DNA of 21,891 nt, taken from the IMG/VR virus record IMGVR_UViG_2778261300_000004, positions 1 to 21,891 of that record. One strand, written 5' to 3'. Every line of letters starts with the position of its first letter. Within the stretch, counting starts at the first letter, position 1. This document shows positions 1 through 16,705 of this stretch, in pieces. The translations under genes and the position numbers were made by a program. The notes under the pieces were generated by a model. The model was not told the origin of the DNA and did not search any database. It saw only the letters and a list, made by a program, of their open reading frames with translations. Source of the stretch: a virus (lineage: Duplodnaviria; Heunggongvirae; Uroviricota; Caudoviricetes).

Positions 1-516
1 ATGAAATTTAAAAAATGTCTTCTGCCTGTGGCAATGTTAGCGTCATTCACTCTGGCAGGATGCCAGTCAAATGCTGACGATCATGCCGCCGATGTTTATC
101 AAACCGATCAACTGAATACCAAACAAGAAACTAAAACCGTTAATATTATTTCCATTCTTCCCGCAAAAGTTGCCGTAGACAACTCCCAAAATAAACGGAA
201 CGCACAAGCCTTCGGCGCGCTTATTGGCGCAGTCGCTGGCGGTGTTATCGGCCACAACGTCGGTTCTGGCAGCAATTCCGGAACGACGGCAGGGGCAGTT
301 GGCGGCGGAGCTGTAGGCGCGGCAGCGGGTTCTATGGTGAATGATAAAACCTTAGTGGAAGGTGTTTCTTTAACCTATAAGGAAGGCACCAAAGTGTATA
401 CCTCTACCCAGGTGGGTAAAGAGTGCCAGTTTACGACAGGTTTAGCCGTTGTTATTACCACGACGTATAACGAAACGCGTATTCAGCCAAATACCAAATG
501 TCCTGAAAAGAGCTAA
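1..516 (+). CDS. Outer-membrane lipoprotein with glycine-zipper segment (YcfJ / Rick_17kDa_Anti-like); probably host flank or cargo
   Basis: ATG at window start; signal peptide ending in lipobox LAGC; Gly/Ala-rich segment GALIGAVAGGVIGHNVGSG resembling the YcfJ-type glycine zipper as recalled. Confidence 0.55.
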   Translation: MKFKKCLLPVAMLASFTLAGCQSNADDHAADVYQTDQLNTKQETKTVNIISILPAKVAVDNSQNKRNAQAFGALIGAVAGGVIGHNVGSGSNSGTTAGAVGGGAVGAAAGSMVNDKTLVEGVSLTYKEGTKVYTSTQVGKECQFTTGLAVVITTTYNETRIQPNTKCPEKS

Positions 517-531
517 TAATCAGGAGGAGTC

Positions 532-1071
532 ATGAAGAAAGTTTTTCTTTGCGCCATCTTAGCCTCCTTAAGCTATCCGGCTATCGCCTCATCATTGCAG
601 GATCAACTCTCTGCTGTCGCAGAAGCGGAACAGCAAGGTAAAAATGAAGAGCAAAGGCAGCATGACGAATGGGTCGCGGAGCGCAACAGGGAAATCCAGC
701 AAGAGAAGCAACGTCGCGCAAATGCCCAGGCCGCCGCTAACAAAAGAGCGGCAACGGCAGCGGCAAATAAGAAAGCTCGTCAGGATAAACTGGACGCCGA
801 AGCCACTGCGGACAAAAAACGCGATCAAAGTTATGAAGATGAGCTACGCAGCTTAGAGATTCAGAAACAAAAACTGGCGCTGGCGAAAGAAGAAGCCCGC
901 GTTAAGCGAGAAAACGAATTTATCGATCAGGAACTGAAGCACAAAGCTGCGCAAACCGATGTGGTGCAATCTGAAGCTGACGCCAACAGAAATATGACTG
1001 AAGGCGGTCGCGATCTGATGAAAAGCGTGGGCAAAGCAGAAGAGAACAAATCGGACAGCTGGTTTAATTAA
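532..1071 (+). CDS. Secreted, highly charged coiled-coil protein of unknown function
   Basis: AGGAGG 5-10 nt upstream of ATG 532; N-terminal signal peptide; K/E/R/A/Q-rich remainder; followed by a strong terminator. Confidence 0.55.
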   Translation: MKKVFLCAILASLSYPAIASSLQDQLSAVAEAEQQGKNEEQRQHDEWVAERNREIQQEKQRRANAQAAANKRAATAAANKKARQDKLDAEATADKKRDQSYEDELRSLEIQKQKLALAKEEARVKRENEFIDQELKHKAAQTDVVQSEADANRNMTEGGRDLMKSVGKAEENKSDSWFN

Positions 1072-1111
1072 TCGATGTTAGTAACTTCAAGCCTATGATT
1101 CTTGAAGATAA

Positions 1112-1142
1112 AAAACCCTCTGTAGTAACAGAGGGTTTTGTT
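1112..1142. terminator. Bidirectional rho-independent terminator between convergent genes
   Basis: Perfect hairpin aaaaccctctg / tagtaa / cagagggtttt with A-run 5' and T-run 3', so it can terminate both the + genes and the minus-strand lysis operon. Confidence 0.7.
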
Positions 1143-1290
1143 CATTCATAGTGCAGGGATTAAAATCATTCCCACTCAATTATTTACGACAATCATAACC
1201 AATTGAGTGATAACATTTTTCCAAAACCAAATTTTTCCCGTACCGTTTTATATACCGTCACCGAAAATCAGTACCATGAAAAATGCCATG

Positions 1291-1773
1291 CTATCTGGTC
1301 AGGGTGTCGTACTGTTTTTCGCAGACTCTTCCGGCTTCGACAGCCCTGTCAGCATACTCTGCCAGTTGTCTGTTTCTCTCGAGAGATTTACTGAGCACGT
1401 CGGCAAGCAAAACTCCGGTGTCTGCGGCTGACGTCCCAGCGCCGACAATGGCGTTATACTGCCTGAGCTGCTCACGGATGGCAACGAGCTGTTGCTGCAA
1501 CCGGCCAGCGCGAGCGGCAGCATCAAGAGCATCATTGCGCGCCTGGTCGATCCTCTGCTGCGCTTCACGTTCATTGATCGCTTTCTCCTGTTCGTAGTGA
1601 TGACGAACTCTCTCATCTTCGGTTTTGCGGTCTTCTTTCGCCTGCGCATACCCGGCGTCGTACTGACGACTGCCGTGTACATTCCAGGCAACAACTCCTG
1701 ATATGACCAGAACAGCAAGCACCGCCATGATAATCAACTGTTTCCGGTATGCTTTTACGAATGCCCAGATCAT
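1291..1773 (-). CDS. Rz: Rz-like i-spanin (inner-membrane spanin subunit)
   Basis: 160 aa with one N-terminal TM helix then a charged coiled coil; start ATG overlaps the endolysin stop (ATGA); position after the endolysin. Confidence 0.7.
1299..1535 (-). CDS. Rz1: Rz1-like o-spanin lipoprotein embedded in the +1 frame of Rz
   Basis: Internal [16 protein letters not shown] with lipobox LAGC, moderately Pro/Ser-rich mature part, entirely inside Rz. Confidence 0.5.
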   Translation of the reverse strand: MMLLMLPLALAGCSNSSLPSVSSSGSITPLSALGRQPQTPEFCLPTCSVNLSRETDNWQSMLTGLSKPEESAKNSTTP

Positions 1774-2399
1774 GCCGCCAGCACCTTACTGGCAGTGACG
1801 TACCGCGTGCGCCGGTCGTCGATGCCATTCCTGCCACCATTGATAATCAAAGTTACACGTGCAATATCGCCGGGATACTTCATGCAGCCTTTGCTGGAGA
1901 AGAACCACGCCGCGCTACGAGCCGCGTATTCGTCTTGCGTCAACAGCTCAGGATTCTCCAGCAGGTCCACTTTCAGGCCGTTTCCGCAGTCACGATAGTT
2001 ATTCAAACCGGTAATCTGGATAAGTCCGCGCCCACGGTAATTCCAACCATCACCGGGAGCATTGTTCCCCATGCGTTTGCTATACACCAGATTTGCGATC
2101 GCGCGCTGTCGCTCAAGTGGCAATGGTGGTTCACCAGCACGGCGTCCCAATGCATTAGCCTGCCCTTGGGTGAGACGCCCAGCACGAACGAAGTTGGCCA
2201 GCCCGGTAACGCTGTAGTTGAAATTCTCCTGCAACCGGGTGAAGCCTCCAGACTCATGCCCGACCATAGCAATAAACATTGCCTGATCTTCGGGGTTGCT
2301 GATACCAAACTCTTTCATCGCAGAAGTTATATGCAAGAACCAGCGTGCGGCCAGCGCCTCGCTGATACCAGCAGCTCGCTGGAATTGTTTAATCTCCAT
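1770..2399 (-). CDS. Endolysin, GH19 (chitinase-like) lysozyme type
   Basis: Starts at internal ATG 2399 ([21 protein letters not shown]...) with GAGG upstream; family assignment from recalled GH19 endolysin features; the track ORF extends upstream only through alternative frames. Confidence 0.7.
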
Positions 2400-2695
2400 G
2401 TTTAGACCTCGATATTTTGAAAATCTGAACAACGTTACCGCGTGTTTTAATAACCGCAGCAAGCATAACAGCGTTGATAATGACCTCAGGTAAATCCACA
2501 GCCATTGGCGTGCATAACCAGATTGCATAGACGACACGAACAGGAATACTGGCCGCAGCAACAATAAGGAAATAAGCAAGCCCCCCCCCATCTTCGGTGT
2601 TGAGAGCCATTACGCCGGAATGTGACAACGCGAATTGCTATTCCCGAACAAATAATCGCATTGGCAATAAGCAAAAAAAGCTCATGAGTTACCAT
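2389..2695 (-). CDS. Holin-like small membrane gene split into two overlapping frames at a G9 tract (frameshifted or slippage-dependent)
   Basis: ORF A (ATG 2695, GGGGAG RBS, one TM) and ORF B (ends 2389, two hydrophobic segments) overlap by 125 nt in frames differing by 1; removing one G at 2581-2589 fuses them into a ~104-aa, 3-TM protein ending 10 nt into the endolysin start. Confidence 0.4.
2581..2589. repeat. Homopolymer tract C9 on + (G9 on the coding minus strand)
   Basis: Read directly; the only long G/C homopolymer in the window, at the junction of the two holin-like frames. Confidence 0.9.
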
Positions 2696-3086
2696 TGTCT
2701 TTTCTCCCCGGAATTAACTCACGTGGATTATCTGAACGATGGTAGAGCCATATACCAATACGTACAGCGACAATCGCCGATACGAATGCTCCTGCAGAAA
2801 AGACGATCCCTTTCTCGAAAGAGTCCTGTGTGATGGTAGGGATCAGGCTGGCTATGCCGATAAGAATCGATGCTGCTGGTTTGTAAAAGAGAAGGCCGCA
2901 AAGAAAGCTGAGAATAGACAGGAGCACCCGGCGGCGGATCGGATACTCGACAGCAGAGGTAACAAAAATCACCGCTCCTGACAAAGCACCGAGCACCACC
3001 TCTGGCGGAACGCCTACGATAACCGCAGCAAGAGAACTCATACTAAGCCACTGATTTAAAGCCCCATCTGTTAGCTGAGCTGACAT
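2682..3086 (-). CDS. Membrane protein with about four predicted TM segments, first gene of the lysis cassette (holin family or lysis accessory)
   Basis: ATG 3086 preceded by GGTGG; 134 aa with four hydrophobic stretches; stop overlaps the start of the next small ORF. Confidence 0.45.
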   Translation of the reverse strand: MSAQLTDGALNQWLSMSSLAAVIVGVPPEVVLGALSGAVIFVTSAVEYPIRRRVLLSILSFLCGLLFYKPAASILIGIASLIPTITQDSFEKGIVFSAGAFVSAIVAVRIGIWLYHRSDNPRELIPGRKDNGNS

Positions 3087-3213
3087 AAAAACCACCGTTT
3101 AATGTGCATAAGACCCTCCTTAGTTGGTGAGTTTATCATACACAATAAACCATATATGGATTAAAGTTAATCAAGCAAAAGACTACCTCCCCAGGAGGTG
3201 GTTTAGGGATAAC

Positions 3214-3242
3214 AATAAAAAGATGGCGCATTGAGCGCCATC
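3214..3242 (-). terminator. Rho-independent terminator after the acyltransferase gene
   Basis: Hairpin gatggcgc / loop / gcgccatc followed on the minus strand by TTTTTA, immediately past the acyltransferase stop; a second weaker hairpin (acctcc/ggaggt) follows. Confidence 0.55.
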
Positions 3243-3245
3243 ATA

Positions 3246-4382
3246 TTAATTATGTTTGTTTGCTGCAATGTTAATAAAATACCTTTCAAAAAAATGGAAG
3301 GTTAAACATGACACAACACAAAGAAATATAAAGACAATAGTTAGCTGAAGATAAAAAATACCACCACTCATAGGAAGGTTGTTTTCTTTCATTACTTTAA
3401 AAGCGACATAAAAAATCACCCCCTGAAGTAGATATATACTGTAACTAGCCTCTCCAAGCCTTATAAATCCCTTGGTTCTAAATAGACCAAATAGATCGGC
3501 ACCTGAGCATACAGCAAAGAAACCTATCGCTGAAACAAATATGAGCTTTGTGCTAAGAGTGCCTGGTGAAAGTATAATAATGCTTAATATTGATGCAACC
3601 AACAAAATTTCTGATTGCAATTTTGTTATTTTCACCAGCAATGTTATTTCTTTCACCAACATACCAAAACAAAAAGCCGCCCATAAGTTTGCTTTGGCAT
3701 CTGGGAAAAATGATGGTACAAAATACATGGATAAAAAAGTAATGGCTGAGATGAACTCTAACGATTTTTCTCTAAATAAGTAAAGCAAAGGAAGAATGAA
3801 ATAAAACCCCCACTCCCACACAAGAGTCCATGTAACTCCAGCAGTTACATATCTTGAGTTAATCATCCCGTTTATATCTGGTCTTATATTCGTAAACCCA
3901 CAGTCAAACCAATACAAATAGTTCTGATACTTCTGAATAAAATCAGATGGAAGCCCTGTATAATACAATATTACAACTATAGCCAAAAGTGATGACAACC
4001 AAGCCATTGGCAAGATTCTAAACAGCCTTCCCTTATACATTGAAATCCAGTCAACACGCTCTGAGTCTCTTATTTTCCCCCAAAATAAAAAAGCAGTAAT
4101 CATGAAGAAAAAATAAACCCCAATATTTCCTATATAGTACATAAATGATGATGTGAACCACCATTTATTATTTATGGTAAAATTCAAAAAAAAGTCCATA
4201 TGGTCAAAGACGACCATTGATGCAAGTATATATCTTACACCTGTTAATTGCATATTTCTATGCAGCTTCACGCCTTTATCCATAAATGAGAATAAAGGCA
4301 TGGAAAATATTAAAGAAACAAATAATATAGAACCAAAAACCCATATTGCTAAATATATGCTATTCTGCATGATTGACACCAT
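3246..4382 (-). CDS. Integral-membrane acyltransferase family 3 (O-antigen acetyltransferase-like) moron
   Basis: 378 aa, roughly ten hydrophobic segments, strongly AT-rich relative to neighbours; acyltransferase-3-like N-terminal motif (LTGVRYILASMVVFDHM) and FFFMITAF; own terminator; immediately after the tailspike. Confidence 0.65.
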   Translation of the reverse strand: MVSIMQNSIYLAIWVFGSILFVSLIFSMPLFSFMDKGVKLHRNMQLTGVRYILASMVVFDHMDFFLNFTINNKWWFTSSFMYYIGNIGVYFFFMITAFLFWGKIRDSERVDWISMYKGRLFRILPMAWLSSLLAIVVILYYTGLPSDFIQKYQNYLYWFDCGFTNIRPDINGMINSRYVTAGVTWTLVWEWGFYFILPLLYLFREKSLEFISAITFLSMYFVPSFFPDAKANLWAAFCFGMLVKEITLLVKITKLQSEILLVASILSIIILSPGTLSTKLIFVSAIGFFAVCSGADLFGLFRTKGFIRLGEASYSIYLLQGVIFYVAFKVMKENNLPMSGGIFYLQLTIVFIFLCVVSCLTFHFFERYFINIAANKHN

Positions 4383-4453
4383 TTTAAATATTTATATTTA
4401 AATTATCACACATAAATAAATATAACAATAGTGCCAATCACATCAGTTATTGA

Positions 4454-6925
4454 TTAAACCACACTTAACCAACTTGAACCATTCGCAACAACTGGGCCAA
4501 CTCCACCAGCAAGACTGGTATTTGTGTTGTAACAGTGACTCCCCCTAACCGCAGTTGCGTTACTAACATCCGCAAAAATACCAAACCCTTTAATCGCCCA
4601 CGTGACCCCTGAAACCGGTGTAGATGGTATAGCTGAGTTTCCATACTGCATATGCCCACTTATATTTACAGAGCCAGTTGTTGTGGTGAAAACTTCACCC
4701 GTTTTACTTGATACGACATTACCGCCGCAAATAACAGAATAGCCACTAACCAGACTTGTTAATTTGTCTGGCCTGTTGAAAAATCCACCGATAAACTCAA
4801 ACGAGGGAGTGGTATTGTCGTAGTTAACACCAGTACTTATAAAGCTATAACCATTAGATTGGGTTAATTTGTCGAAGATAACTTTCTCTACTTTACCACT
4901 AGACTTTCTGATCACCGCCTGCCCGGAAACCAAATCAATATTCCCCGAAACAATAACGGTGTTTATCTGCCCACGGGTGATACGAACTCCGGCTGCGTCC
5001 GACACACTGGTAGCAAGTAAGGTTTTATCGAAATTAACATTAAGATTGTCTATGCGACTATTGTCGGCACCAGCACCATCACCCCCTACCTCCAGAAAAT
5101 ATGCGACATCACGAGGGCACCGACATTCCAGATTGTAGACACGAACTGCTGATGAGCCAGCCGTCCCAGTGGTTACCGACACTACAGGCACAACTGCTGC
5201 CGAGTAGTTAGCCGAGATAACGCCGATTACAGCGTTATCGACGGTAACAGTACCAGTCCCTACTGTTTTAAATTCAATGGTTCTGTAGCCAGCGCCAGCA
5301 ATTCCACCGACATTGTCGATATTCAGTGTTTTCACGTTGGTTTGTGACAGATTTGGTCCATCTGTCCACACCCTGATTACACTATGCTGGTAGCTACCAT
5401 AAACACCATCTATGCTCAGGTGGCGAACAGGTGTTGTGCTGTTTCCTGCAACCTTTACTGCACATAAAGAATTAATGCCATAAATGCCCTTAACGTCGAT
5501 GTGATTAAACGTTCCGCGCAACCCTAAATCGTAAGCAAGGTAATCCCCTCCGGTCATTGCAAACATGTCATCGCCAGTCGTACCGTACAGATCCCTTACG
5601 TAGGCATAATCAATAGGTGGCTGTAGATGAAGTCCATCAGAGTTGTTATTAAAACGAAGCCCTTGAGCATCAAGATATTGAACGTTGGCTACAAGGTAAG
5701 AATATTTTCTTGCACCTTTAATTTCCAGTCCACCACCTAATTTAACCCGCACTGCTGATGCAATGCAGATGCAATGCATTTCCATCCCATTCGAGGTGCC
5801 TCCCGTAGAATAGTTGTAGTCAACGGTCCCACCTCCCCATATCCCAATATAATCTGAGCGGTTACCAAGATCGGATGTGTTAGAAGCAAAACCTCCCGAG
5901 ACTGTCCTGTTTGACAGAACATATTCCCATTTCTCACTTACAAATACCGGCCTCAGATTGCCAGACGCGCCTGAAACCGTAACGCCGGATTTAATTTCGA
6001 TGTCGGTGTTATTAGGGACTATGATTGGCCCATTGACAAAAATAGTACCCTGATCTGCAAACACAATTCTCGTAATCGTGGACTTACCAGACAGATCGTT
6101 CAGCATGTTCTGCAAATTTGTAGAGTTAACGGTGGCACTATTTGTTGGTAAGACACCATAATCACTTACATAATAAATCCTATCTAATTTGTCTTTTACT
6201 GTCTGTAAAATCGCAAATGGTCCCTTATTTTTATATCCTGTTATTTTTGCACCATTGTTTGCTAACTCAATTAGAACATCTGAAGCCGAGCCTGATTCTG
6301 GCAAAACGGCAATTGGTCTCCCTACATCATTAAAAGCAAGAATTTTATTCGCTCTCTCTTCATTTGATGGTATCTGATCAACATAACTTTCAGGAACTCT
6401 TAGCGTCCTTTTGAAAAGGTTGTCGACATAATAGGCGACACTGTCAACATAATTTTTTGTTGCCGCATCCTGTGGATCTCGTGGGTCTCTAAGATTACGG
6501 ATATAGTTGTTTAGCGCGTCGTACCAGTTCGCGATGCTTGATGGCTTACGCAGCGCAAGGCTAAACAAACTGCGAACCTGCTGAATCAACATCGTTAGCT
6601 TATCAAACGCATCCTCATGCACCTCAGCAAAAAACTTACCCTGATTGCGCAGATCAGTTTCCTGTGTAACCGGTAGCTCTCGTGATATAGAAATCCGATA
6701 ACCGTTAGCCAACGCCTTCGACAGAATTACATTACCGCCGTTGTACCCTCCCGCACCAGTGACTGCGTAATCAGTATCAAGAGCCAGCACAGCGATATTT
6801 TCATCAAGGTCAACCACCTGTACTACCAGATCAGATTCCTGGAAAATCCTAAAGGTATAAGGGAATGAAGTCGTAACACCGTTACCTGTGTATTCGTTGT
6901 GGTCAACTTCTGTTGATACCGTCAT
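4454..6925 (-). CDS. Tailspike / receptor-binding protein, likely beta-helix glycanase
   Basis: ATG 6925 with GGAG RBS (track start is an upstream TTG); N-terminal ~150 aa (MTVSTEVDHNEYTGNGVTTSFPYTF...QETDLRNQGKFFAEVHEDAFDKL) matches the conserved tail fibre/tailspike N-domain as recalled; G/S/T/N/V-rich remainder. Confidence 0.7.
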   Translation of the reverse strand: MTVSTEVDHNEYTGNGVTTSFPYTFRIFQESDLVVQVVDLDENIAVLALDTDYAVTGAGGYNGGNVILSKALANGYRISISRELPVTQETDLRNQGKFFAEVHEDAFDKLTMLIQQVRSLFSLALRKPSSIANWYDALNNYIRNLRDPRDPQDAATKNYVDSVAYYVDNLFKRTLRVPESYVDQIPSNEERANKILAFNDVGRPIAVLPESGSASDVLIELANNGAKITGYKNKGPFAILQTVKDKLDRIYYVSDYGVLPTNSATVNSTNLQNMLNDLSGKSTITRIVFADQGTIFVNGPIIVPNNTDIEIKSGVTVSGASGNLRPVFVSEKWEYVLSNRTVSGGFASNTSDLGNRSDYIGIWGGGTVDYNYSTGGTSNGMEMHCICIASAVRVKLGGGLEIKGARKYSYLVANVQYLDAQGLRFNNNSDGLHLQPPIDYAYVRDLYGTTGDDMFAMTGGDYLAYDLGLRGTFNHIDVKGIYGINSLCAVKVAGNSTTPVRHLSIDGVYGSYQHSVIRVWTDGPNLSQTNVKTLNIDNVGGIAGAGYRTIEFKTVGTGTVTVDNAVIGVISANYSAAVVPVVSVTTGTAGSSAVRVYNLECRCPRDVAYFLEVGGDGAGADNSRIDNLNVNFDKTLLATSVSDAAGVRITRGQINTVIVSGNIDLVSGQAVIRKSSGKVEKVIFDKLTQSNGYSFISTGVNYDNTTPSFEFIGGFFNRPDKLTSLVSGYSVICGGNVVSSKTGEVFTTTTGSVNISGHMQYGNSAIPSTPVSGVTWAIKGFGIFADVSNATAVRGSHCYNTNTSLAGGVGPVVANGSSWLSVV

Positions 6926-7028
6926 GTTCAATCTCCGGATAGTCGCAGCACCCGTTGCGCCGCATACCCGGTTATTTTATTACCTTAAAAACCACATATG
7001 GATAGATAACCCATAAATACGAACAGAT

Positions 7029-7045
7029 ATCACCTTTCAGGTGAT
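7029..7045. promoter_or_regulatory. 17-bp inverted repeat A-TCACC-N5-GGTGA-T, a variant of the operator-like motif
   Basis: atcacctttcaggtgat in the divergent tailspike / SOS-gene intergenic region; same architecture as the TTACC-N5-GGTAA sites. Confidence 0.35.
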
Positions 7046-7081
7046 TTGCAAAACGTGCTGGATAGCAAATAAATTATTTGA

Positions 7082-7101
7082 TACTGTATATTCATACAGT
7101 T
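7082..7101. promoter_or_regulatory. LexA (SOS) box
   Basis: TACTGTATATTCATACAGTT matches the CTGT-N8-ACAG consensus with both arms intact (about 17/20 to TACTGTATATATATACAGTA); 20 bp upstream of ATG 7121. Confidence 0.65.
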
Positions 7102-7120
7102 ATTGCATGGAGAAGATAAG

Positions 7121-7378
7121 ATGCAGCAGTATCACTATCCACTGGAAAACGGATTTACCGAAAAGATTCACACGCCGGGAGGCGTCAGATCACTGGTGGA
7201 GGGATCGCACTTGATGAAATTACTCCGGGATCTCGATAAAGATGGATTTAATGTCGATGGTCCACTTGCCGAACTGACTGCACTGATTAACTACGTCACC
7301 AGCTCACAGATGTCTATGCAGGATCTGCAAACACATCTCGACTATTGTGCCGAACAATTACGAAAACAAACCCGGTAA
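7121..7378 (+). CDS. Small SOS-regulated protein of unknown function (candidate antirepressor or SOS-induced accessory factor)
   Basis: ATG 7121 with GGAGAAG RBS (track start is an upstream TTG at 7103); 85 aa, acidic and soluble; LexA box at its promoter; a hairpin follows. Confidence 0.5.
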   Translation: MQQYHYPLENGFTEKIHTPGGVRSLVEGSHLMKLLRDLDKDGFNVDGPLAELTALINYVTSSQMSMQDLQTHLDYCAEQLRKQTR

Positions 7379-7385
7379 ATTTAAA

Positions 7386-7401
7386 GGCCGCAAGAGCGGC
7401 C
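7386..7401. terminator. Hairpin between convergent genes (terminator-like)
   Basis: ggccgc / aaga / gcggcc; T-rich tract on the minus strand side, weaker on +. Confidence 0.4.
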
Positions 7402-7402
7402 T

Positions 7403-7414
7403 GTGACATGTCAC
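7403..7414. repeat. 12-bp perfect palindrome GTGACATGTCAC, copy 1 of 2
   Basis: Read directly; an identical copy lies at 13756-13767. Confidence 0.8.
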
Positions 7415-7421
7415 GCTCACG

Positions 7422-7562
7422 TTATGACAAGCCTATGTACCCTGCTACACCAGATAATATCAAAACAACTGCAACAGCAAATTCGCCATCGTGAATGATA
7501 CATTTACGGTTCATAACGCCAAGTGCAACAAGCGCAAACACAACAAGAATAAAAGCAATCAT
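7422..7562 (-). CDS. 46-aa hydrophobic membrane peptide (below the ORF-track cutoff)
   Basis: ATG 7562 with AGGATGAG RBS 10 nt after the 750-aa gene stop; MIAFILVVFALVALGVMNRKCIIHDGEFAVAVVLILSGVAGYIGLS gives two hydrophobic segments; stop at 7422-7424. Confidence 0.4.
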   Translation of the reverse strand: MIAFILVVFALVALGVMNRKCIIHDGEFAVAVVLILSGVAGYIGLS

Positions 7563-7571
7563 TTCTCATCC

Positions 7572-9824
7572 TTATTGCGGAGTGACATCCTGTGGTCGCC
7601 ACCAGTATGTCTGGTTAAACTCTTTCTTCGAACGTTGCTCCATTTTACGCAAATAACCTGGTGAAAAATACTCCTGCATCTGGTTAAAGATCATGTGATC
7701 GAGAGCCGCCTTTAAGTACCAGAGATTCGCACCTGGCATCAGACCTTTCCCCAGCTTAACCAGATCACCACCAGTCTGCTCATTCTTCCCTTCCACAGCA
7801 TTTAACGGTATGCCCTGAGCAATCTTCACTACGTCATCAACCAGACCAGCTACCGGGCCAAGCATCGACGCCAGCGCGCCGCTTCCGTACCTGGTGTGAT
7901 CTGACAATAAAAAGTCACCGTAAAGGCCAAGACCACCACCTTTCAGTAGAGCACCAAGCCAGAATTTTGCGGCATCTTCTCCTGTCATCTCTCGAGGATT
8001 ACGACCAGACGCAAGGTCGTTAAGTTGCTGCGACAAAGCGCCAAGAATGGTCGTACTGGCAATAAACGTCGCAATATATGCCGCACGCCCACCAGCAGAC
8101 GGCATACCCATAGCGCGTGACCAGTGACGCATAACCACCGAGATAGGGAACGATTTAAACAGGAAAACACTTCTCGTTAATTCACCTTTCCATGTTCCAC
8201 GCTGAATACCAGAACCGGTTATCAGTTGCTCACGTGCTCCCGGTGTAATAACAGCCATATCAACTTCTTCAGTTACGGCACCGAGCAGTTTACGCATTGC
8301 CTCAAATTTCACGCGTTCAGGCTCACCAAGATGTTTAACTGCTGAATCAGGGATACGCATAATGCTTTCCGGTGTCAGCATCGTATTATTGCCGTTCCCC
8401 CAGTCCTCCTGTTGCGCCAGACTCCATACGCTCCAGTCTGTGTCAGTAATCCCTTTGCTTTTCAGGATACGATAATCAGAATCATCGAGGCTATGAAGGT
8501 CTGGTGTCCGTGACACTACTTCTCCCAGGCTTCCCATCATGGTTACGCCATAGGCGCGCTTGTGCGCATCTGACCATGCTGTAAGCCCACTGGCACGCAT
8601 TACCGCCGTTGCAGCCCAACGAGACACAGACGGCCCCATATTATCCATCGCCCAGCGGTTAACGCTGCCAAGTAGAGATTCCATCGCCAGACCAGCGCGG
8701 CGCGCCCGCGCAAGCTCAGTACGGTTCGTTGGGTCCATAGCTTCAAGCTGGTTGCGGAATAACTGGTTCATTGGAAGGTTGGTCACCTTCGCAGACAGAT
8801 ACATGGTTCCAAGATCAGAGAACGATGACAGCAACGCGGATCCGAGTCTGCTGGCAACCAGCCAGTTGCGGATATTGTCAGACCATCGCGCGATGTGCGG
8901 ATTCGCTACAGGCTGTGTCTTTCCGGAAATAAAGTTGTACAGATTCTCTGTGTTGTTCGCCAGCCGCTCGACTTTACCGGTTTTACTCGGGTTAGCTGTT
9001 GCCGTTTCTGCCTTAACCTGATCAAGAAGGGAGCGGAAAACATGATCGGGGTTTGGACCATATGTTTCCACCAGAGCAATATCTTTACTGATACCTTCCA
9101 GGTGACCGACCATGATTTCCCATAGAGAGCGATCGCCATAAAGTTGTTGATATTGGAGATAGGAATCTGCATCTTTGAAATGTATCTGTCGTGATGCATT
9201 ACCACGGTTAGCACGTGCGCCGGAAATTCGCATTCCGGTATCAGTAAGCTTATTCAGCCCACCAGTAGCGATCGTGTTATAAGCCTCTCCAAGAAATGCA
9301 GACAACTCGGCATCGTTCATCAGTTGTCCATCGGCTCGGGTATAATATTTGCGATCCAGCTTACCTATAACATCGCTAACCCACTTATCCTTTGATACCG
9401 CCCCAACCTTTTCCATAGAATGATGTTGAGGGATCCCCCAGTTTTCGAGATAGCCAATGTCCCCACCAGCATCATTAAACCGGCGGCGCAGCAGCTCTGT
9501 AACTTCTCTCCACGCCTTAGCACCTTTTCTTGCTTTAGCATTGCCAGTATTTTGCCCCCGCATTTCATATACCAGGTCACGTACGCCCGCTTCATCTTCA
9601 AACAGACCAAAAAAGCGAGGATCAACTGCTTCGAATGCCTCCTGCAATTGACTCAATGCATAATCACGGGTGGCTTTTGTTCTGGATTCAACAGAGAGGA
9701 AATTAGATTTACCGTCTGCATTAAAAGCTATAGTACGGTTAAGAGCGCCAAGTTTCCCATCAGCCCCTTGATAGCTATTGATAAATTTATCCAATCTCTG
9801 ACGCGCGGCTATAGTGAGAGCCAC
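7572..9824 (-). CDS. Large virion protein, probably a DNA-ejection/injection (internal) protein of a podovirus-like particle
   Basis: 750 aa, GTG start; soluble N-terminal part and a C-terminal region with hydrophobic and Gly-rich segments; sits upstream of the tailspike where P22-like phages carry ejection proteins. Not portal-like by eye. Assignment is positional. Confidence 0.4.
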   Translation of the reverse strand: MALTIAARQRLDKFINSYQGADGKLGALNRTIAFNADGKSNFLSVESRTKATRDYALSQLQEAFEAVDPRFFGLFEDEAGVRDLVYEMRGQNTGNAKARKGAKAWREVTELLRRRFNDAGGDIGYLENWGIPQHHSMEKVGAVSKDKWVSDVIGKLDRKYYTRADGQLMNDAELSAFLGEAYNTIATGGLNKLTDTGMRISGARANRGNASRQIHFKDADSYLQYQQLYGDRSLWEIMVGHLEGISKDIALVETYGPNPDHVFRSLLDQVKAETATANPSKTGKVERLANNTENLYNFISGKTQPVANPHIARWSDNIRNWLVASRLGSALLSSFSDLGTMYLSAKVTNLPMNQLFRNQLEAMDPTNRTELARARRAGLAMESLLGSVNRWAMDNMGPSVSRWAATAVMRASGLTAWSDAHKRAYGVTMMGSLGEVVSRTPDLHSLDDSDYRILKSKGITDTDWSVWSLAQQEDWGNGNNTMLTPESIMRIPDSAVKHLGEPERVKFEAMRKLLGAVTEEVDMAVITPGAREQLITGSGIQRGTWKGELTRSVFLFKSFPISVVMRHWSRAMGMPSAGGRAAYIATFIASTTILGALSQQLNDLASGRNPREMTGEDAAKFWLGALLKGGGLGLYGDFLLSDHTRYGSGALASMLGPVAGLVDDVVKIAQGIPLNAVEGKNEQTGGDLVKLGKGLMPGANLWYLKAALDHMIFNQMQEYFSPGYLRKMEQRSKKEFNQTYWWRPQDVTPQ

Positions 9825-9835
9825 ACGACGTTTCT

Positions 9836-10090
9836 TTAATGCCGCTTCACCATGTCAGAAAACTCAAGGCGGAGATCAGCATCTTTAGGCATCGGAATAC
9901 CTTTCGCGTCATCAGTACCTTTACGAGCCGCCGCGCCAGCAAGAATTGTCTGCGCAGCGGTTTCAGGAGACACGGAAACATCCGGATTAAACCAGTTTTT
10001 TTCTGCCAAAATACCACCTGGCTTATCCATCAGTATCCCGGCAACGGCAGCAGATGGAGCGTTGGCACTGATCTGCTGTAGTGCTGACAT
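9836..10090 (-). CDS. Short ORF, probably the C-terminal remnant of a truncated upstream virion gene
   Basis: 84 aa from ATG 10090; stop 12 nt before the 750-aa gene start; nothing phage-structural lies upstream of it, only the tRNA island. Confidence 0.3.
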   Translation of the reverse strand: MSALQQISANAPSAAVAGILMDKPGGILAEKNWFNPDVSVSPETAAQTILAGAAARKGTDDAKGIPMPKDADLRLEFSDMVKRH

Positions 10091-10343
10091 ATACACCTGC
10101 CCACCACCAGTGCTCTGCCTGATGGTAGCGGTCTGGATACGTTTAAGGGGCACCCTCCCTTGCTCGGGCAAACGAACCAGGTAGCCGGAATGTGCAAGTC
10201 GAGCGGTTTTATTCCGCGCACGGGGATTCACCATCCCGGCGATTCGGTGTGACACCTCGGAAGAGACGAGGGTGCAACGATGAGAGCATTTATGGAGCCG
10301 CGACAAAGTGTGGTGCCTTAACAGGCTAAGTGCTCTCAGCGTT

Positions 10344-10420
10344 GTGGCATTAGCTCAGTTGGACAGAGCAACCGCCTTCTAAGCGGTTGGTCGCAGGTTC
10401 GAATCCTGCATGCCACGCCA
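10344..10420 (+). tRNA. tRNA-Arg, anticodon UCU (reads AGA/AGG)
   Basis: Cloverleaf folded by hand: 7-bp acceptor stem GTGGCAT/ATGCCAC, D-arm GCTC..GAGC, anticodon stem ACCGC/GCGGT with loop CTTCTAA, T-arm GCAGG TTCGAAT CCTGC, discriminator G and encoded CCA. Confidence 0.9.
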
Positions 10421-10463
10421 GAATCACGCCTAAGGACCGTGATGCCAGAAGTTCCAGGTGCTT

Positions 10464-10506
10464 GGCGGTGATGGTTTCCCTTGAAGGACTACCACCGCCC
10501 TTTTTA
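10464..10506 (+). terminator. Hairpin plus T-run after the tRNA (terminator-like)
   Basis: ggcggtg ... caccgcc arms followed by CTTTTTACA. Confidence 0.35.
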
Positions 10507-10583
10507 CAGCAGGACGCCATTGCGATGACTTCATGCTGTAAACCCGTACAGCCACGGAAGGCATAACTCATTGCTTCCAGTTC

Positions 10584-10608
10584 GCCCACTTCAGTGGGCT
10601 TTTTTTTC
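10584..10608 (+). terminator. Rho-independent terminator
   Basis: gcccac / ttca / gtgggc followed by T8. Confidence 0.7.
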
Positions 10609-10620
10609 TAGTGACTACTG

Positions 10621-10637
10621 ATTACCTTATGGGTAAT
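10621..10637. promoter_or_regulatory. Operator-like inverted repeat A-TTACC-N5-GGTAA-T in the promoter region of the AT-rich gene
   Basis: attaccttatgggtaat, perfect arms; overlaps a candidate -10 TAATAT (10634-10639) about 30 bp upstream of ATG 10669. Confidence 0.5.
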
Positions 10638-10668
10638 ATGCTGCAAACAAATAACACAAGGCCGTGAC

Positions 10669-11487
10669 ATGCTTGACTTCATCCGTGACATTTACTCCTC
10701 TTTCCGCCAAGCATCTCTTGAGCGGGTGAAAAGCCCGTTCCTTGGGGCATTTGTTTTTTCCTGGCTTTGCTTTAATTGGCAGATGTTAGCAATTCTATTT
10801 TTTAGTTCTAAGGATATTGAAAAGCGCCTTGCTATTATTAATGGCTCTTTCGGCATCGTCAGCTTTTTAATTGCGCCAATATGCACTACAGCATTGATAG
10901 TTATCCTTTTACCGCAAATTAATAAATTAATTACAATAATACAAGATAAACCTAACTCAGACACAATTGAAATGAGCCTTGCATCTAAAATAAAGATCGC
11001 CGAACTGCAGCAACTATTAGCAGAAAATGAAGCAAGAAAGAAACTTGCTGATAAAAAAGAAGAACGCTTCATTGAAGAGAATATTATTTCAATAAAAAAA
11101 GACCATGAAAAAGCAATAGATAACCTTAAAGACAAAGAAAGTAAAATCTCAAATCTCACGGACACAATAACTGAACTTCAGAGCAAACTGGTTAAAGCTG
11201 AGGCCACTCTCAAAGTTGAACAGGAGTCAAGATCCCAAGTGCAGAATGAATTGATTATTGAAAAAGAGAACAAGCGGAAATTAGAAGACAACATTCTGCA
11301 CCTTAATTTAAGTTTAAAAAAAAACCAATCAGAATTGGCCATTGCAAAAGAAGCCTATGATAATACCTTGATGGCTTATAATGAACTTAACACAACATTA
11401 AAAAAAGCAGAAAGCTCAATAATAAACTTCAACGCTAACTTTCCTTTTTTAACTGACATAAATAACAGCACCCCAAATACATACTAA
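10669..11487 (+). CDS. AT-rich moron: protein with two N-terminal TM helices and a long coiled coil (candidate exclusion, abortive-infection or host-takeover factor)
   Basis: 272 aa; two N-terminal hydrophobic segments then a K/E/L/N-rich heptad-like region; composition much more AT-rich than flanking phage genes; opposite strand to neighbours; own promoter-like and terminator-like signals. Confidence 0.55.
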   Translation: MLDFIRDIYSSFRQASLERVKSPFLGAFVFSWLCFNWQMLAILFFSSKDIEKRLAIINGSFGIVSFLIAPICTTALIVILLPQINKLITIIQDKPNSDTIEMSLASKIKIAELQQLLAENEARKKLADKKEERFIEENIISIKKDHEKAIDNLKDKESKISNLTDTITELQSKLVKAEATLKVEQESRSQVQNELIIEKENKRKLEDNILHLNLSLKKNQSELAIAKEAYDNTLMAYNELNTTLKKAESSIINFNANFPFLTDINNSTPNTY

Positions 11488-11582
11488 AAAAAAAATAAAA
11501 ATGCATGGGAGCATTTAGTTAGTTTAAATTTAAGTCTAAAGGAGAAAATACAAAAATAAATAACCAATCCACTATGGCATAT

Positions 11583-13052
11583 TTACTCATACGGGTCATA
11601 ATCTATTATAGCCTTACCCTGCTGCTGGCGCGGATCATTAAGTTTTTTTGTGACCGGAAAAGCAAACGTCAGCAGTAGCGCATCGCCTTTACCCGGCGAA
11701 CGCCCAAGCCGCTCCTTGATATCTTCCTTCGGTTCGATAACGATTTTACCGTCCACGCGAACTTTGTACTCTGCCGCCGACAGGTCGTCCGCTGTTTCCT
11801 GGTCATCCAGCATGCCGCCCAGCCTCAGCCATGTCTTGCATGAGTTGAACATCTCCCCACGCTTGTTAAGCATCTGCGGGTCAGTGGACGCACCGCCGAA
11901 CGGAACAAGTTGCCATGTACGTCCCCAGCCATCACCGATTGACTTCAGACCAGTTCCGTAACCGAAGTCGATGAACACTGCGTCAGCCTGGTACTGGTCT
12001 TCAAAGTCAGCGATATGCTTCGCCATAATCAGATCGTCAGTGGTCTTGTTGCCAGTCCACAGCACCTTACTGTGCAGCCCCTGCCGCAGGTATATCACAG
12101 CGTCATCAACGCCGGAGTATGCCGGGTCAACGCCGATTATCACCGGTGCATGTGCCACCTGCGCAGCAGTTACCACCCGTTTCATTGCCTCGTCAGTAAG
12201 ACCGGTAGGGATAAACTGCAATTCAGATGCATCAGGGAATATGCCGCGCACACGGATTTTAACGAAGTCGCTGTCTTCCCCGTAGTCATCAACCCATTTC
12301 TGCAATTGCTGCTTGTTAGTACCTTCCACCGTCCGGCTGTCAATCTGCGCAGTTTTCCAGCGGTGTTTATATTTGCGGAAACATTCACGGAAACGTCCGG
12401 TATTACGCGTCGGGTTTCCGAACGCCACCCAGATAATCTCAGTGTCTTCGTCCGTAAGCGCACCCTCAGCAACTTCCCACACCAGATCCGCAATGTTCGA
12501 CGCTTCATCGAATACCACGATGATGCGTTTGCGCTCGTTGTGTAGTCCGGCGAATGCCTCAGTGTTGTGCTCAGACCAGGGGATTGCGTCAGCTCGCCAC
12601 CGCTTGTCGTGCCCAGGATCATTGCTGTACATCGCAGTAGCGGTACAGGTAAACCAGTCTTTCGTGATAGCAAGGTTCGACCACTTGATAATTTCCGGCC
12701 AGGTCTTCGTTCGTAGCTGGTTGTCGGTGTTGGCGGTCACCACGACCTTACAATCCTCGCAAGTGGACATGCCCCAGTTGATCAGCATTGAGATGAGTGC
12801 TGATTTACCAATACCGTGACCCGAAGCACGTGCCAGCATAAGCGGCTGATAGCGCGTCTCGGGATTCTGCAGGTGATCACGTATCTCTCGGAACGCATCG
12901 GCCTGCCACTGACGTGGGCCGGAAGCATGTGCCAGTTCAGTCCCCTCTTCCCCCCACGGGAACGCATAGAGGGCATAGCCAAGCGGATCGTGAGTGAACC
13001 CTGCAATATCCTCGATCAACTGCTCTTCAGGAGATAACGCTGCATCTGTCAC
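11583..13052 (-). CDS. terL: Terminase large subunit
   Basis: 489 aa; Walker A-like SGHGIGKS; GTG start overlaps the terS stop (GTGA). Confidence 0.8.
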   Translation of the reverse strand: MTDAALSPEEQLIEDIAGFTHDPLGYALYAFPWGEEGTELAHASGPRQWQADAFREIRDHLQNPETRYQPLMLARASGHGIGKSALISMLINWGMSTCEDCKVVVTANTDNQLRTKTWPEIIKWSNLAITKDWFTCTATAMYSNDPGHDKRWRADAIPWSEHNTEAFAGLHNERKRIIVVFDEASNIADLVWEVAEGALTDEDTEIIWVAFGNPTRNTGRFRECFRKYKHRWKTAQIDSRTVEGTNKQQLQKWVDDYGEDSDFVKIRVRGIFPDASELQFIPTGLTDEAMKRVVTAAQVAHAPVIIGVDPAYSGVDDAVIYLRQGLHSKVLWTGNKTTDDLIMAKHIADFEDQYQADAVFIDFGYGTGLKSIGDGWGRTWQLVPFGGASTDPQMLNKRGEMFNSCKTWLRLGGMLDDQETADDLSAAEYKVRVDGKIVIEPKEDIKERLGRSPGKGDALLLTFAFPVTKKLNDPRQQQGKAIIDYDPYE

Positions 13053-13645: not shown

Positions 13646-13755
13646 AACCACCGTGGTAATAGTTACCGTTGTGGTAATAGTACCATGCAAAATAAAGCCG
13701 CCATAGTTGGCGGCAGTATTCAAAACCCGTCAAATTCATCATGCATAATCTACTC

Positions 13756-13767
13756 GTGACATGTCAC
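13756..13767. repeat. 12-bp perfect palindrome GTGACATGTCAC, copy 2 of 2
   Basis: Read directly; overlaps the stop codon of the 13764-14111 gene, just upstream of terS. Confidence 0.8.
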
Positions 13768-14111: not shown

Positions 14112-14216
14112 TCCACGCCAGATTGATTAATGACTCCCAGGTAATATAAACCCGGATACCAGCAGCCAGGCCGAAACCAATCACCATGGCATAAAGCAGA
14201 GCGTTGCACTTGTTCA

Positions 14217-14762: not shown

Positions 14763-14763
14763 A

Positions 14764-16477: not shown

Positions 16478-16596
16478 TCAACACAGTGTCCGTTGTAAAC
16501 CCAGCGTTCACTGTCATGTCCGTGCTTACATGGTTTTCCGGTGTAGTAGCGTTTAAGTCCGCGCTTTGCGGCATCAATACGTGTAATGATTTCCAT
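16471..16596 (-). CDS. Small zinc-ribbon-like ORF; 3' end unresolved
   Basis: ATG 16596 (MEIITRIDAAKRGLKRYYTGKPCKHGHDSERWVYNGHCVEC); its frame has no stop until 16306 and becomes Arg/Trp-rich where it overlaps the coiled-coil frame. Confidence 0.25.
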
Positions 16597-16705
16597 GGTA
16601 AGTACTGTTATTAGTATTGGGATTACGGTTATTTTGTGCTGACACAAAAAAAAGATCAACCAGATTTGGTTTTTTATTACCTTTGAGGTGCGAATAGATA
16701 TGAAA

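What the first reader, a model, noticed from the sequence alone, without database searches (positions are those of the whole stretch)
3246..6925. Tailspike immediately followed by an AT-rich acyltransferase-3 gene: candidate seroconversion module
The 823-aa tailspike has a conserved N-terminal particle-binding domain and a divergent C-terminal part typical of polysaccharide-degrading spikes. Directly downstream is a 378-aa multi-pass acyltransferase-3 protein with very different base composition and its own terminator. This pairing matches O-antigen acetylation systems of temperate podoviruses, where the acetyltransferase blocks re-adsorption. The acceptor glycan is unknown.
Basis: partly seen in the sequence, partly recalled or inferred. 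Interest (0 to 1): 0.5.

Follow-up and report, generated by a model that had tools for sequence, protein, structure and literature searches.

The report
Prophage tailspike plus O-antigen acetyltransferase module
A decayed E. coli prophage of the phiV10/epsilon15 type keeps an intact tailspike gene followed by a membrane acyltransferase that most likely acetylates the host's O-antigen to block phages with that tailspike; this kind of module is already known, so the find is ordinary, though its probable sugar target can now be named.

Summary
On the minus strand there is an 823-aa tailspike (6925->4454). It is followed after a 71-bp spacer of 18% GC by a 378-aa AT3 acyltransferase (4382->3246, 33% GC against 47% for the prophage) and a strong intrinsic terminator (3242-3222).

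The element is a Uetakevirus (phiV10/epsilon15-like) prophage beside yfgH/yfgI. phiV10 carries its experimentally proven O-antigen acetyltransferase in the same slot, between tail spike and holin.

New points:
- The AT3 keeps the essential R-X10-H and RxxR motifs.
- Its homologues lie next to a phage tail spike or fibre gene in 5 of 7 contexts.
- The spike C-terminus models as a right-handed beta-helix with a GH28-like Asp signature.
- The same receptor-binding domain occurs on P22-like prophages. Carriers of it, and of the AT3, share one rare, O-untyped O-antigen cluster (rmlBDAC-wzx-wzy-4 GT-manCB; 6 of 5426 complete E. coli genomes). This names a candidate acceptor glycan.
- The prophage in this window is defective: portal, capsid and tail genes are deleted, the integrase is truncated and one holin is frameshifted. 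Here the spike is a relic, and only the acyltransferase can still matter.

Function is inferred, not shown.

The parts
4454..6925 (-). Tailspike gene, 823 aa (stop codon included)
   Evidence: ORF. PHROG 1640 tail protein, E=4.9e-148. The identical protein occurs on 6 contigs, always followed by the AT3 where the contig continues.
6236..6925 (-). Tailspike N-terminal particle-binding domain (aa 1-230), conserved Uetakevirus backbone
   Evidence: 76% identical to phiV10 gp25 residues 1-227. Residues 1-164 match the N-terminus of the PDB Klebsiella phage depolymerase Dpo31/36 at E=1.3e-26. Nucleotide homology to phiV10 and other prophages resumes at window position ~6435-6444.
4457..6250 (-). 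Tailspike receptor-binding/enzymatic domain (aa 226-823): right-handed parallel beta-helix with conserved N427-x-S-D430-G ... G451-D452-D453 ... D477 ... K491
   Evidence: AF2 model with pLDDT 91.8. Foldseek hits to the CBA120 TSP3, HK620 and Sf6 tailspikes and to GH28 exopolygalacturonase at probability 1.0. Motif conservation in 18 homologues. 96% and 94.5% nt identity to the RBD of P22-like prophage spikes in E. coli FACU 2024 and PM7.
4383..4453 (-). AT-rich spacer (18% GC) between spike stop and AT3 start. It has no terminator. It contains an extended -10-like TGTGATAAT (4409-4401) and a weak -35/-10 pair (4409-4381).
   Evidence: The promoter assignment is by eye only, and the scan found fewer promoter-like sites than in shuffled sequence.
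3246..4382 (-). AT3-only acyltransferase, 378 aa (alternative start ATG 4370 gives 374 aa). It has 11 predicted TM helices; R50-X10-H61 and R119-x-x-R122 are intact.
   Evidence: Pfam PF01757. PHROG 3333. Invariant motif residues in 32 homologues. AF2 model with pLDDT 92.2. Best PDB fold match is HGSNAT, probability 0.93.
3222..3242 (-). Intrinsic terminator of the AT3 gene (GATGGCGCTCAATGCGCCATC + TTTTTATTGT)
   Evidence: sequence.
3166..6434 (.). Variable cassette (spike RBD + AT3 + terminator) flanked by conserved Uetakevirus backbone
   Evidence: blastn against phiV10, L004 and L005: homology stops at 3161-3165 and resumes at 6435-6444.

Best explanation
The two genes form the receptor module of a phiV10/epsilon15-like temperate podovirus integrated next to yfgI.

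The spike attaches to the virion through its conserved N-terminal 230 residues. It binds, and probably cleaves, the host O-antigen with a beta-helix domain that carries a GH28-like Asp cluster.

The downstream gene is a stand-alone AT3 membrane acyltransferase. As in other AT3 proteins, it would take an acyl (most likely acetyl) group from cytoplasmic acyl-CoA through its transmembrane pore, using the R-X10-H and RxxR residues. It would then put that group on a sugar of the O-antigen repeat at the periplasmic face. The modified O-antigen would no longer be a substrate for this spike domain, so the lysogen is protected from phages that carry it, and its O-factor changes.

The most probable acceptor is the O-antigen made by a rare, serologically untyped cluster (rmlBDAC, wzx, wzy, three GT4, one GT2, manC, manB). 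That glycan would contain rhamnose and mannose.

In this window the prophage has lost portal, capsid and tail genes. The spike cannot be used here, and only the acyltransferase can still have an effect.

Shown: gene structure, family membership, motifs, fold, synteny and the co-occurrence with the O-antigen cluster.

Inferred: the acyl donor, the acceptor, expression in the lysogen and the exclusion phenotype.
For: - AT3 membership and intact essential residues. The roles of these motifs are described in PMC9558356.
- The AT3 sits in the same slot as the experimentally validated phiV10 oac (PMC11854483).
- The slot is variably filled in relatives: an AT3-only gene in L004/L005, an AT3-SGNH gene in FT130, and nothing in A357 and 702/18.
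- Homologues at 40-47% identity lie directly beside a tail spike or fibre gene in 5 of 7 contexts, and in a prophage in 6 of 7.
- The spike has a beta-helix fold like the O-antigen endoglycosidase spikes, with conserved acidic residues.
- Only 2 of 5426 complete E. coli genomes carry this RBD. Both are among the 6 genomes that have one particular wzx/wzy pair, and their prophages sit at different integration sites. The chance expectation for this is about 1e-6.
- The AT3, the spike and the Wzy/GT proteins all occur on an E. fergusonii chromosome of 4,619,411 bp. In at least 5 further draft assemblies the AT3 accession lies within 1,300-4,200 accession numbers of proteins from this O-cluster.
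- A P22-like prophage with the same RBD carries the remnant of an AT3-SGNH acyltransferase beside its spike.
- The AT3 ORF is intact in every copy examined, including 4 or more copies of the deleted prophage.
Against: - There is no biochemical or genetic test.
- There is no recognisable similarity to phiV10 Oac beyond the family motifs.
- There is no NCBIfam equivalog.
- The promoter needed for expression in a lysogen is not established. The consensus scan is below chance level.
- The gene is co-directional with a late gene and no terminator lies between them, so it might be expressed mainly late.
- The O-antigen cluster could not be shown in the assembly that the window itself appears to come from.
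- There are too few substitutions between copies to test for purifying selection.
Confidence: 0.7

Rival explanations
1. The AT3 acylates another envelope glycan (enterobacterial common antigen, osmoregulated periplasmic glucans, colanic acid or capsule, peptidoglycan) rather than the O-antigen. Its position beside the spike is incidental moron placement.
For: AT3-only proteins of E. coli include WecH (ECA) and others with non-LPS substrates (PMC9558356). The family domain alone does not fix the substrate. One homologue, P0013, lies in a non-phage islet with a flippase and a hexapeptide transferase.
Against: The AT3 matches no curated NCBIfam family at all. It is repeatedly adjacent to receptor-binding proteins in unrelated phage types. 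It co-occurs with one O-antigen cluster. The precedent in the same slot is an O-antigen acetylase.
Confidence: 0.1
2. The module is a silent relic. In this defective prophage neither gene is expressed or selected, and the intact ORFs only reflect how recent the decay is.
For: The prophage has lost about 13.6 kb of morphogenesis genes. It also has a truncated integrase and a frameshifted holin. The copies differ by only 1-3 codons, so intactness is weak evidence of selection. The gene is AT-rich, the kind of DNA that H-NS silences (general knowledge). No significant promoter was found.
Against: The AT3 is intact in all 6 or more loci seen, while other genes in the same element broke. Lysogenic conversion genes are typically expressed independently of the phage's late genes (general knowledge). 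The private substitutions L87I and G161C fall at variable positions.
Confidence: 0.12
3. The AT3 is mainly a late gene, co-transcribed with the spike. It modifies the O-antigen of the dying cell so that released virions are not trapped on debris, a receptor-destroying role rather than protection of the lysogen.
For: The arrangement is co-directional, no terminator lies between spike and AT3, and a strong terminator lies only after the AT3. This differs from the convergent arrangement in phiV10, L004, L008, L009 and FT130.
Against: O-antigen chains already on the surface are not modified by a periplasmic-face AT3 within a short late period (inference). The gene is retained in a prophage that cannot make virions. 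This role does not exclude expression in the lysogen.
Confidence: 0.08

Closest known systems
phiV10 Oac (PhiV10p26) with tail fibre gp25, Escherichia phage phiV10 (Uetakevirus)
   Same: Same phage genus and same integration-side architecture. The AT3-only gene sits in the same slot between tail spike and holin genes. The spike N-terminus is 76% identical. The backbone is 88-98% identical at the nucleotide level.
   Different: The AT3 proteins share no BLASTP similarity, and hhalign aligns only the R-X10-H region. phiV10 oac is convergent to the spike, whereas here the genes are co-directional. The spike RBD is unrelated, and the target is O157 in phiV10 against an untyped rhamnose/mannose O-antigen here. 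This protein has an extra N-terminal TM helix.
Oac of Shigella phage Sf6 and OacB/C/D (AT3-only O-antigen acetyltransferases of serotype-converting phages)
   Same: AT3-only architecture, an essential RxxR motif, carriage on a temperate podovirus, serotype conversion, and a rhamnose-containing O-antigen (PMC9558356).
   Different: In P22-like phages the gene lies next to int/att. Sequence similarity was not tested here. The acceptor sugar and position are known for Sf6 and unknown here.
OafB (GtrC family II) of Salmonella prophage BTP1 and OafA: AT3-SGNH fused O-antigen acetyltransferases
   Same: They acetylate O-antigen rhamnose or abequose. BTP1 OafB protects against the BTP1 rhamnosidase tailspike by the same receptor-masking logic (PMC9558356). 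A remnant of such a gene lies beside the same RBD in E. coli FACU 2024.
   Different: Those proteins have a fused periplasmic SGNH domain. This protein has none.
O-antigen-cleaving beta-helix tailspikes (HK620, Sf6, P22, CBA120 TSP3) and GH28 glycosidases
   Same: Right-handed parallel beta-helix fold, with Foldseek probability 1.0. Modular N-terminal adaptor plus an exchangeable RBD; the same RBD is found on P22-type, Tail_spike_N-type and epsilon15-type adaptors.
   Different: Sequence identity is only 11-14% and TM-scores about 0.3. There is no Pfam hit. The catalytic residues are only inferred from an NxSDG...GDD pattern one coil apart.

Membership tests
Acyltransferase-3 (AT3, PF01757) membrane acyltransferases | Pfam PF01757 match above the gathering score over the whole domain | tested here: met
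   80.6 bits against a cut-off of 31, E=1.4e-22, profile positions 4-323 of 326.
Acyltransferase-3 (AT3, PF01757) membrane acyltransferases | R/K-X10-H motif in TM1 (essential in OafA/OafB) | tested here: met
   R50 and H61 are invariant in 32 homologues down to 24% identity. The motif is described in PMC9558356.
Acyltransferase-3 (AT3, PF01757) membrane acyltransferases | RxxR motif in the first cytoplasmic loop (essential in Sf6 Oac) | tested here: met
   R119-L-F-R122; both arginines are invariant.
Acyltransferase-3 (AT3, PF01757) membrane acyltransferases | Ten-helix transmembrane acyltransferase (TmAT) fold | tested here: inconclusive
   The AF2 model has pLDDT 92.2 and 11 long helices, that is 10 plus one extra N-terminal helix. 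The best PDB matches are human HGSNAT structures at probability 0.93, but with E=0.09 and TM 0.33. No AT3 structure turned up in the PDB sequence search.
Phage-encoded O-antigen acetyltransferase conversion modules (phiV10 Oac, Sf6 Oac type) | Encoded on a temperate phage or prophage, next to the receptor-binding protein or at the att-proximal end | tested here: met
   Uetakevirus prophage; the gene lies between spike and holin, as phiV10 oac does.
Phage-encoded O-antigen acetyltransferase conversion modules (phiV10 Oac, Sf6 Oac type) | Sequence orthology to a characterised phage Oac | tested here: not met
   BLASTP against phiV10 Oac gives E=0.35 and hhalign gives probability 4%. Sf6 Oac was not compared.
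Phage-encoded O-antigen acetyltransferase conversion modules (phiV10 Oac, Sf6 Oac type) | Expressed in the lysogen from its own promoter | tested here: inconclusive
   The AT-rich spacer has promoter-like hexamers, but the scan is below the chance level. The gene does have its own terminator.
Phage-encoded O-antigen acetyltransferase conversion modules (phiV10 Oac, Sf6 Oac type) | Adds O-acetyl to the O-antigen and blocks adsorption of the cognate phage | not testable with these tools
   This needs LPS chemistry and adsorption assays. The only support here is indirect: co-occurrence with one O-antigen cluster.
Uetakevirus (epsilon15/phiV10-like) tailspike | Conserved N-terminal virion-attachment domain | tested here: met
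   76% identity to phiV10 gp25 over residues 1-230.
Uetakevirus (epsilon15/phiV10-like) tailspike | Beta-helix polysaccharide-binding or -degrading C-terminal domain | tested here: met
   AF2 model with pLDDT 91.8. Foldseek hits to tailspikes and GH28 enzymes. Enzymatic activity itself was not tested.
Uetakevirus (epsilon15/phiV10-like) tailspike | Part of a prophage able to build virions | tested here: not met
   Relative to phiV10, the window lacks positions 3148-14350 and 14637-17058, which hold the portal, protease, capsid, tail and internal virion genes. The sibling locus L003 retains the 837/600/824-aa structural genes.

The most novel reading that the evidence does not exclude
This AT3 defines a distinct subfamily with an extra N-terminal helix, carried on phages and linked to spike genes. 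It travels with receptor-binding domains as an exchangeable cassette across podovirus and siphovirus prophages of Enterobacteriaceae. Here it converts a so far unserotyped E. coli / E. fergusonii O-antigen (rhamnose and mannose, possibly one of the OgN genotypes) into a new acetylated O-factor. The host keeps it as a stand-alone anti-phage gene after the rest of the prophage has decayed.
Probability: 0.4. Interest if true: 0.45.

Novelty: new member of a known kind. Interest (0 to 1): 0.33.

Why it matters
O-antigen acetylation by prophages changes serotype, vaccine epitopes and phage susceptibility.

This locus adds a divergent AT3 allele. It is at most 47% identical to anything outside its own cluster. 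It is absent from the 5426 complete E. coli genomes, although it is present in more than 100 draft assemblies and sequencing samples.

The locus also gives a testable triple of spike, acetyltransferase and O-antigen for an O-type that in-silico serotyping left unclassified in one carrier strain. That is useful for phage host-range prediction and for typing untypeable E. coli and E. fergusonii.

It also illustrates that a receptor-masking gene can outlive its phage. It does not reveal a new mechanism.

Tried and rejected
- Searches for the AT3 gene in 5426 complete E. coli genomes (megablast and blastn) and in 50,697 phage records found no copy. The gene is known only from draft assemblies, sequencing samples and E. 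fergusonii.
- The PDB sequence search for the AT3 found nothing. NCBIfam and PADLOC also found nothing, so no finer functional name is available.
- Pfam on the spike RBD gave no family even at E<=0.05. The GH28-like signature therefore rests on fold and motif spacing only.
- I tried to show that the window's probable source assembly (GCA_002518655.1) carries the O-antigen cluster, by looking up partial O-cluster proteins. These look-ups returned other samples, collapsed places, or no record, so the point stays unresolved.
- I tried to name the O-antigen cluster. One carrier, SI-NP020, is typed 'uncl:H14' (PMC8209727). The UniProt entries for Wzy and the GTs might come from Iguchi's OgN work, which is my guess only. 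In that paper OgN8, OgN10 and OgN12 carry rmlBDAC (PMC4873512), but I could not decide which, if any, this cluster is. A literature search on fergusonii + OgN found nothing.
- The promoter scan found fewer sigma-70-like sites than in shuffled sequence. Promoter statements are therefore by eye only.
- The syn/nonsyn comparison between copies has too few differences (0-2 synonymous, 1-3 non-synonymous codons in the AT3) to infer selection.
- I considered that the deletions might be assembly artefacts and rejected this. The same junctions, gene sizes and holin frameshift recur in at least 4 independent samples.
Full report
**Observation.** The minus strand of the window carries an 823-aa ORF (ATG 6925 to stop 4454) followed by a 378-aa ORF (ATG 4382 to stop 3246).

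The second ORF matches Pfam Acyl_transf_3 over the whole domain (E=1.4e-22, 80.6 bits against a cut-off of 31). It also matches the phage family PHROG 3333 'O-acetyltransferase' (E=4.6e-37).

Its GC content is 33.2%. The 71-bp spacer upstream is 18.3% GC, the tailspike 44.1% and the prophage as a whole 47.1%.

A hairpin with 8 pairs (6 G-C) followed by TTTTTATTGT lies 4 nt after the stop codon, at 3242-3222. There is no terminator between the two genes.

Two small corrections apply. Both genes are on the minus strand. NCBI annotation of identical or near-identical copies often starts the acyltransferase at Met5, giving 374 aa.

**Context.** Positions 1-1163 are E. coli chromosome; the two lipoprotein genes correspond to yfgH and yfgI.

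From about 1164 to the end of the window lies a prophage of the phiV10/epsilon15 group, genus Uetakevirus. Reading the minus strand, the gene order is:
- terS (13723-13049) and terL (13052-11583)
- a fragment of the gp18 homologue
- a gp20 homologue lacking its first 198 nt (7572-9824)
- the tailspike
- the AT3
- the holin-like gene (3095-2682)
- a second holin
- a GH19 endolysin (2399-1770)
- Rz (1773-1291)

The right part of the window holds early genes and ends at the start of the integrase gene.

**The prophage is defective.** A blastn comparison with phiV10 shows two deletions:
- phiV10 3148-14350 is missing. This removes the portal/adaptor, protease, major head, tail and internal virion proteins and most of gp18.
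- phiV10 14637-17058 is missing. This removes the end of gp18, gp19 and the first 198 nt of gp20.

The junctions lie at window 10126-10130 and 9845-9848. Adjacent blast segments overlap there by 4-5 bp.

Two further defects are visible. The integrase ORF is 314 aa against 416 in phiV10. The gp28-type holin has lost 2 bp, leaving a run of nine C on the plus strand at 2581-2589.

A sibling locus from another sample (L003) is 99.07% identical over window 1-9848 and keeps the 837-, 600- and 824-aa structural genes and the holin. The deleted form recurs in at least four independent samples, so it is not an assembly artefact. In all of them the spike and the AT3 are intact.

**The acyltransferase.** The residues shown to be essential in characterised AT3 proteins are the R/K-X10-H motif of TM1 and the RxxR motif of the first cytoplasmic loop (PMC9558356). 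Both are present here as R50...H61 and R119-L-F-R122. They are invariant in an alignment of 32 homologues reaching down to 24% identity, as is E190.

The two substitutions private to this window's allele (L87I, G161C) fall at variable columns.

An AlphaFold model built on that alignment has pLDDT 92.2. It shows eleven long helices: one extra N-terminal helix (residues 2-25) before the canonical TM1.

The best solved-structure matches are human HGSNAT, at probability 0.93 but E=0.09. That fits the proposal that AT3 and HGSNAT share a fold (abstract of PMC12423673), but it is weak evidence.

There is no fused SGNH domain, so this is an 'AT3-only' protein like Sf6 Oac and phiV10 Oac.

Outside its own 90% cluster (28 sequence variants, in E. 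coli and E. fergusonii; the two commonest are on 73 and 62 contigs), the nearest protein is 47% identical. The gene is absent from 5426 complete E. coli genomes even at blastn sensitivity, and from the phage collection.

**Synteny of homologues.** I looked up the genomic context of seven homologues at 38-99% identity.
- Five lie directly beside a phage tail spike or fibre gene: two Uetakevirus prophages at the same att site, two siphovirus-like prophages with a Tail_spike_N-type spike, and one Enterobacter prophage.
- One lies next to a phage integrase at a contig end.
- One lies in a non-phage islet with a flippase.

In every case where a spike is adjacent, except this window and its near-identical copies, the two genes are convergent. 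Here they are co-directional.

In related E. coli Uetakevirus prophages the slot between spike and holin holds one of four things:
- an unrelated AT3-only gene (phiV10 oac)
- a 46%-identical AT3 (L004/L005)
- a 619-aa acyltransferase family protein, long enough to be an AT3-SGNH fusion (FT130)
- nothing (A357 and 702/18)

Backbone homology breaks at window positions 3161-3165 and resumes at 6435-6444. The spike RBD, the AT3 and the terminator therefore form one variable cassette.

**The precedent.** phiV10 oac, in the same slot, was shown to modify the O157 antigen and to make cells immune to phiV10 when expressed from a plasmid (Perry et al. 2009, as summarised in PMC11854483 and PMC9558356).

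The window's AT3 is not an orthologue of it. BLASTP finds nothing, and a profile comparison aligns only the R-X10-H region at 4% probability. The claim is therefore 'works like', with membership only at the level of the AT3 family.

**The spike.** Residues 1-230 are 76% identical to phiV10 gp25. The rest has only 23 relatives in 5.8 billion proteins. These sit on at least three kinds of N-terminal adaptor, in E. coli, Enterobacter hormaechei, Plesiomonas, Pantoea and Providencia.

A model of residues 226-823 has pLDDT 91.8 and is a right-handed parallel beta-helix. Foldseek places it with the CBA120 TSP3, HK620 and Sf6 tailspikes and with GH28 exopolygalacturonases, at probability 1.0, TM about 0.3 and 11-14% identity.

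All homologues that have residues at these columns (18 of the 19 aligned rows) conserve N427-x-S-D430-G, G451-D452-D453, D477 and K491. The 22-residue spacing between D430 and D452 corresponds to one coil. From memory it resembles the NTD...GDD pattern of GH28 enzymes.

I propose D430, D452 and D453 as the catalytic acids. This is inference: no Pfam family matches the domain.

**Which glycan?** Nucleotides 4447-6255 of the window are 96.1% and 94.5% identical to the RBD of P22-type tailspikes in two complete E. coli genomes, FACU 2024 and PM7. No other complete genome has this RBD. The two prophages sit at different sites, dacD/sbcB and argW.

The O-antigen cluster of FACU 2024 is rfbBDAC, wzx, wzy, three GT4, one GT2, manC and manB. 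Its wzx-wzy segment occurs in only 6 of 5426 complete genomes, and PM7 is one of them. By chance, two genomes would both fall in that set about once in a million.

The exact-sequence look-up extends this:
- An E. fergusonii chromosome of 4,619,411 bp carries the AT3 (P0146), the 823-aa spike (P0165), Wzy (P0175) and the GT2 (P0241).
- Another E. fergusonii chromosome, of 4,583,330 bp, carries the P22-type spike and Wzy.
- In at least five draft assemblies the AT3 accession lies within 1,300-4,200 accession numbers of a protein from this O-cluster (blocks EFG252, EFI149, EFT269, EFN79 and HCP598). The same holds for the 823-aa spike in two more assemblies (HGW660, HGX869).

The accession-block argument is indirect. 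It is hard to explain otherwise, however, given how rare the cluster is.

One carrier of the cluster, SI-NP020, was typed 'uncl:H14' (PMC8209727). The cluster may be one of the OgN genotypes (PMC4873512), but I could not decide which.

A further hint concerns FACU 2024. Beside its spike with the same RBD is a 258-aa ORF that matches 'SGNH domain (fused to AT3 domains)' at E=4.6e-29 and begins just after an IS3 element. It looks like the remnant of a different O-antigen acyltransferase.

I could not show that the window's own source assembly carries the cluster.

**Mechanism proposed.** The AT3 takes an acyl group, most likely acetyl, from acyl-CoA at the cytoplasmic face. It transfers the group to a sugar of the rhamnose- and mannose-containing O-unit at the periplasmic face.

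The modified polymer is then no longer bound or cut by this beta-helix domain. That excludes phages carrying the domain, whatever their virion type, and changes the O-factor.

Expression in the lysogen would need a promoter in the AT-rich spacer. An extended -10-like TGTGATAAT lies at 4409-4401 and a weak -35/-10 pair at 4409-4381, but the consensus scan is no better than chance. Read-through from the spike gene during lytic growth is also possible, because no terminator intervenes.

In this strain the spike cannot be assembled into particles. The module's only possible present function is therefore the acyltransferase.

It is a new member of a well-known kind of lysogenic conversion module. 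It has a divergent AT3 allele, an unusual gene orientation, a defective host prophage and a now-identifiable candidate acceptor. Interest is modest.

Noticed in passing
window 9845-9848 and 10126-10130; 20947-21891: The prophage is a deletion derivative of about 21 kb, against 39 kb for phiV10. Two deletions remove the portal, protease, capsid, tail and internal virion genes. Adjacent blast segments overlap by 4-5 bp at the junctions. The integrase ORF is 314 aa instead of 416. The same deleted form is present in at least 4 independent samples.
   Followed up: yes
window 2581-2589 (C9 run), ORFs 2389-2697: The gp28-type holin (102 aa in sibling loci) is frameshifted by a 2-bp loss that leaves a homopolymer run. 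The upstream Phage_holin_8 gene, the endolysin and Rz are intact.
   Followed up: partly
window 10344-10420: A tRNA-Arg (anticodon TCT) lies inside the prophage, downstream of terL. It was found by both ARAGORN and Rfam.
   Followed up: no
window 10669-11487 (+): An AT-rich (34.6% GC) 272-aa ORF lies on the opposite strand between terL and the tRNA. It has an N-terminal hydrophobic segment and a long coiled coil. It matches PHROG 13369 (function unknown), gives only faint SMC-like coiled-coil hits, and has no defence-system match. It is a possible moron.
   Followed up: partly
L008 7001-10066: A 47%-identical AT3 homologue lies tail-to-tail with a tailspike carrying a SASA/SGNH O-acetylesterase domain (PF03629). 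An acetyltransferase next to a putative deacetylating spike is not explained by simple receptor masking.
   Followed up: no
L002 5204-5980 (E. coli FACU 2024): An SGNH domain of the type fused to AT3 domains (PF19040, E=4.6e-29) lies beside a P22-type spike with the same RBD. The ORF begins just after an IS3 element. This suggests that a second, unrelated acyltransferase was once paired with this RBD.
   Followed up: yes
cluster members (Escherichia fergusonii chromosomes of 4,619,411 and 4,583,330 bp): The same spike RBD, AT3 and O-antigen cluster occur in Escherichia fergusonii as well as in E. coli. The O-antigen and its phages are therefore shared across the two species.
   Followed up: partly
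window 3249-4382, residues 2-25 of the AT3: An extra N-terminal transmembrane helix precedes the canonical AT3 TM1. The close homologues align over 97-98% of the query, so the region appears to be shared. It would place the N-terminus on the opposite side of the membrane from ordinary 10-TM AT3-only proteins.
   Followed up: partly
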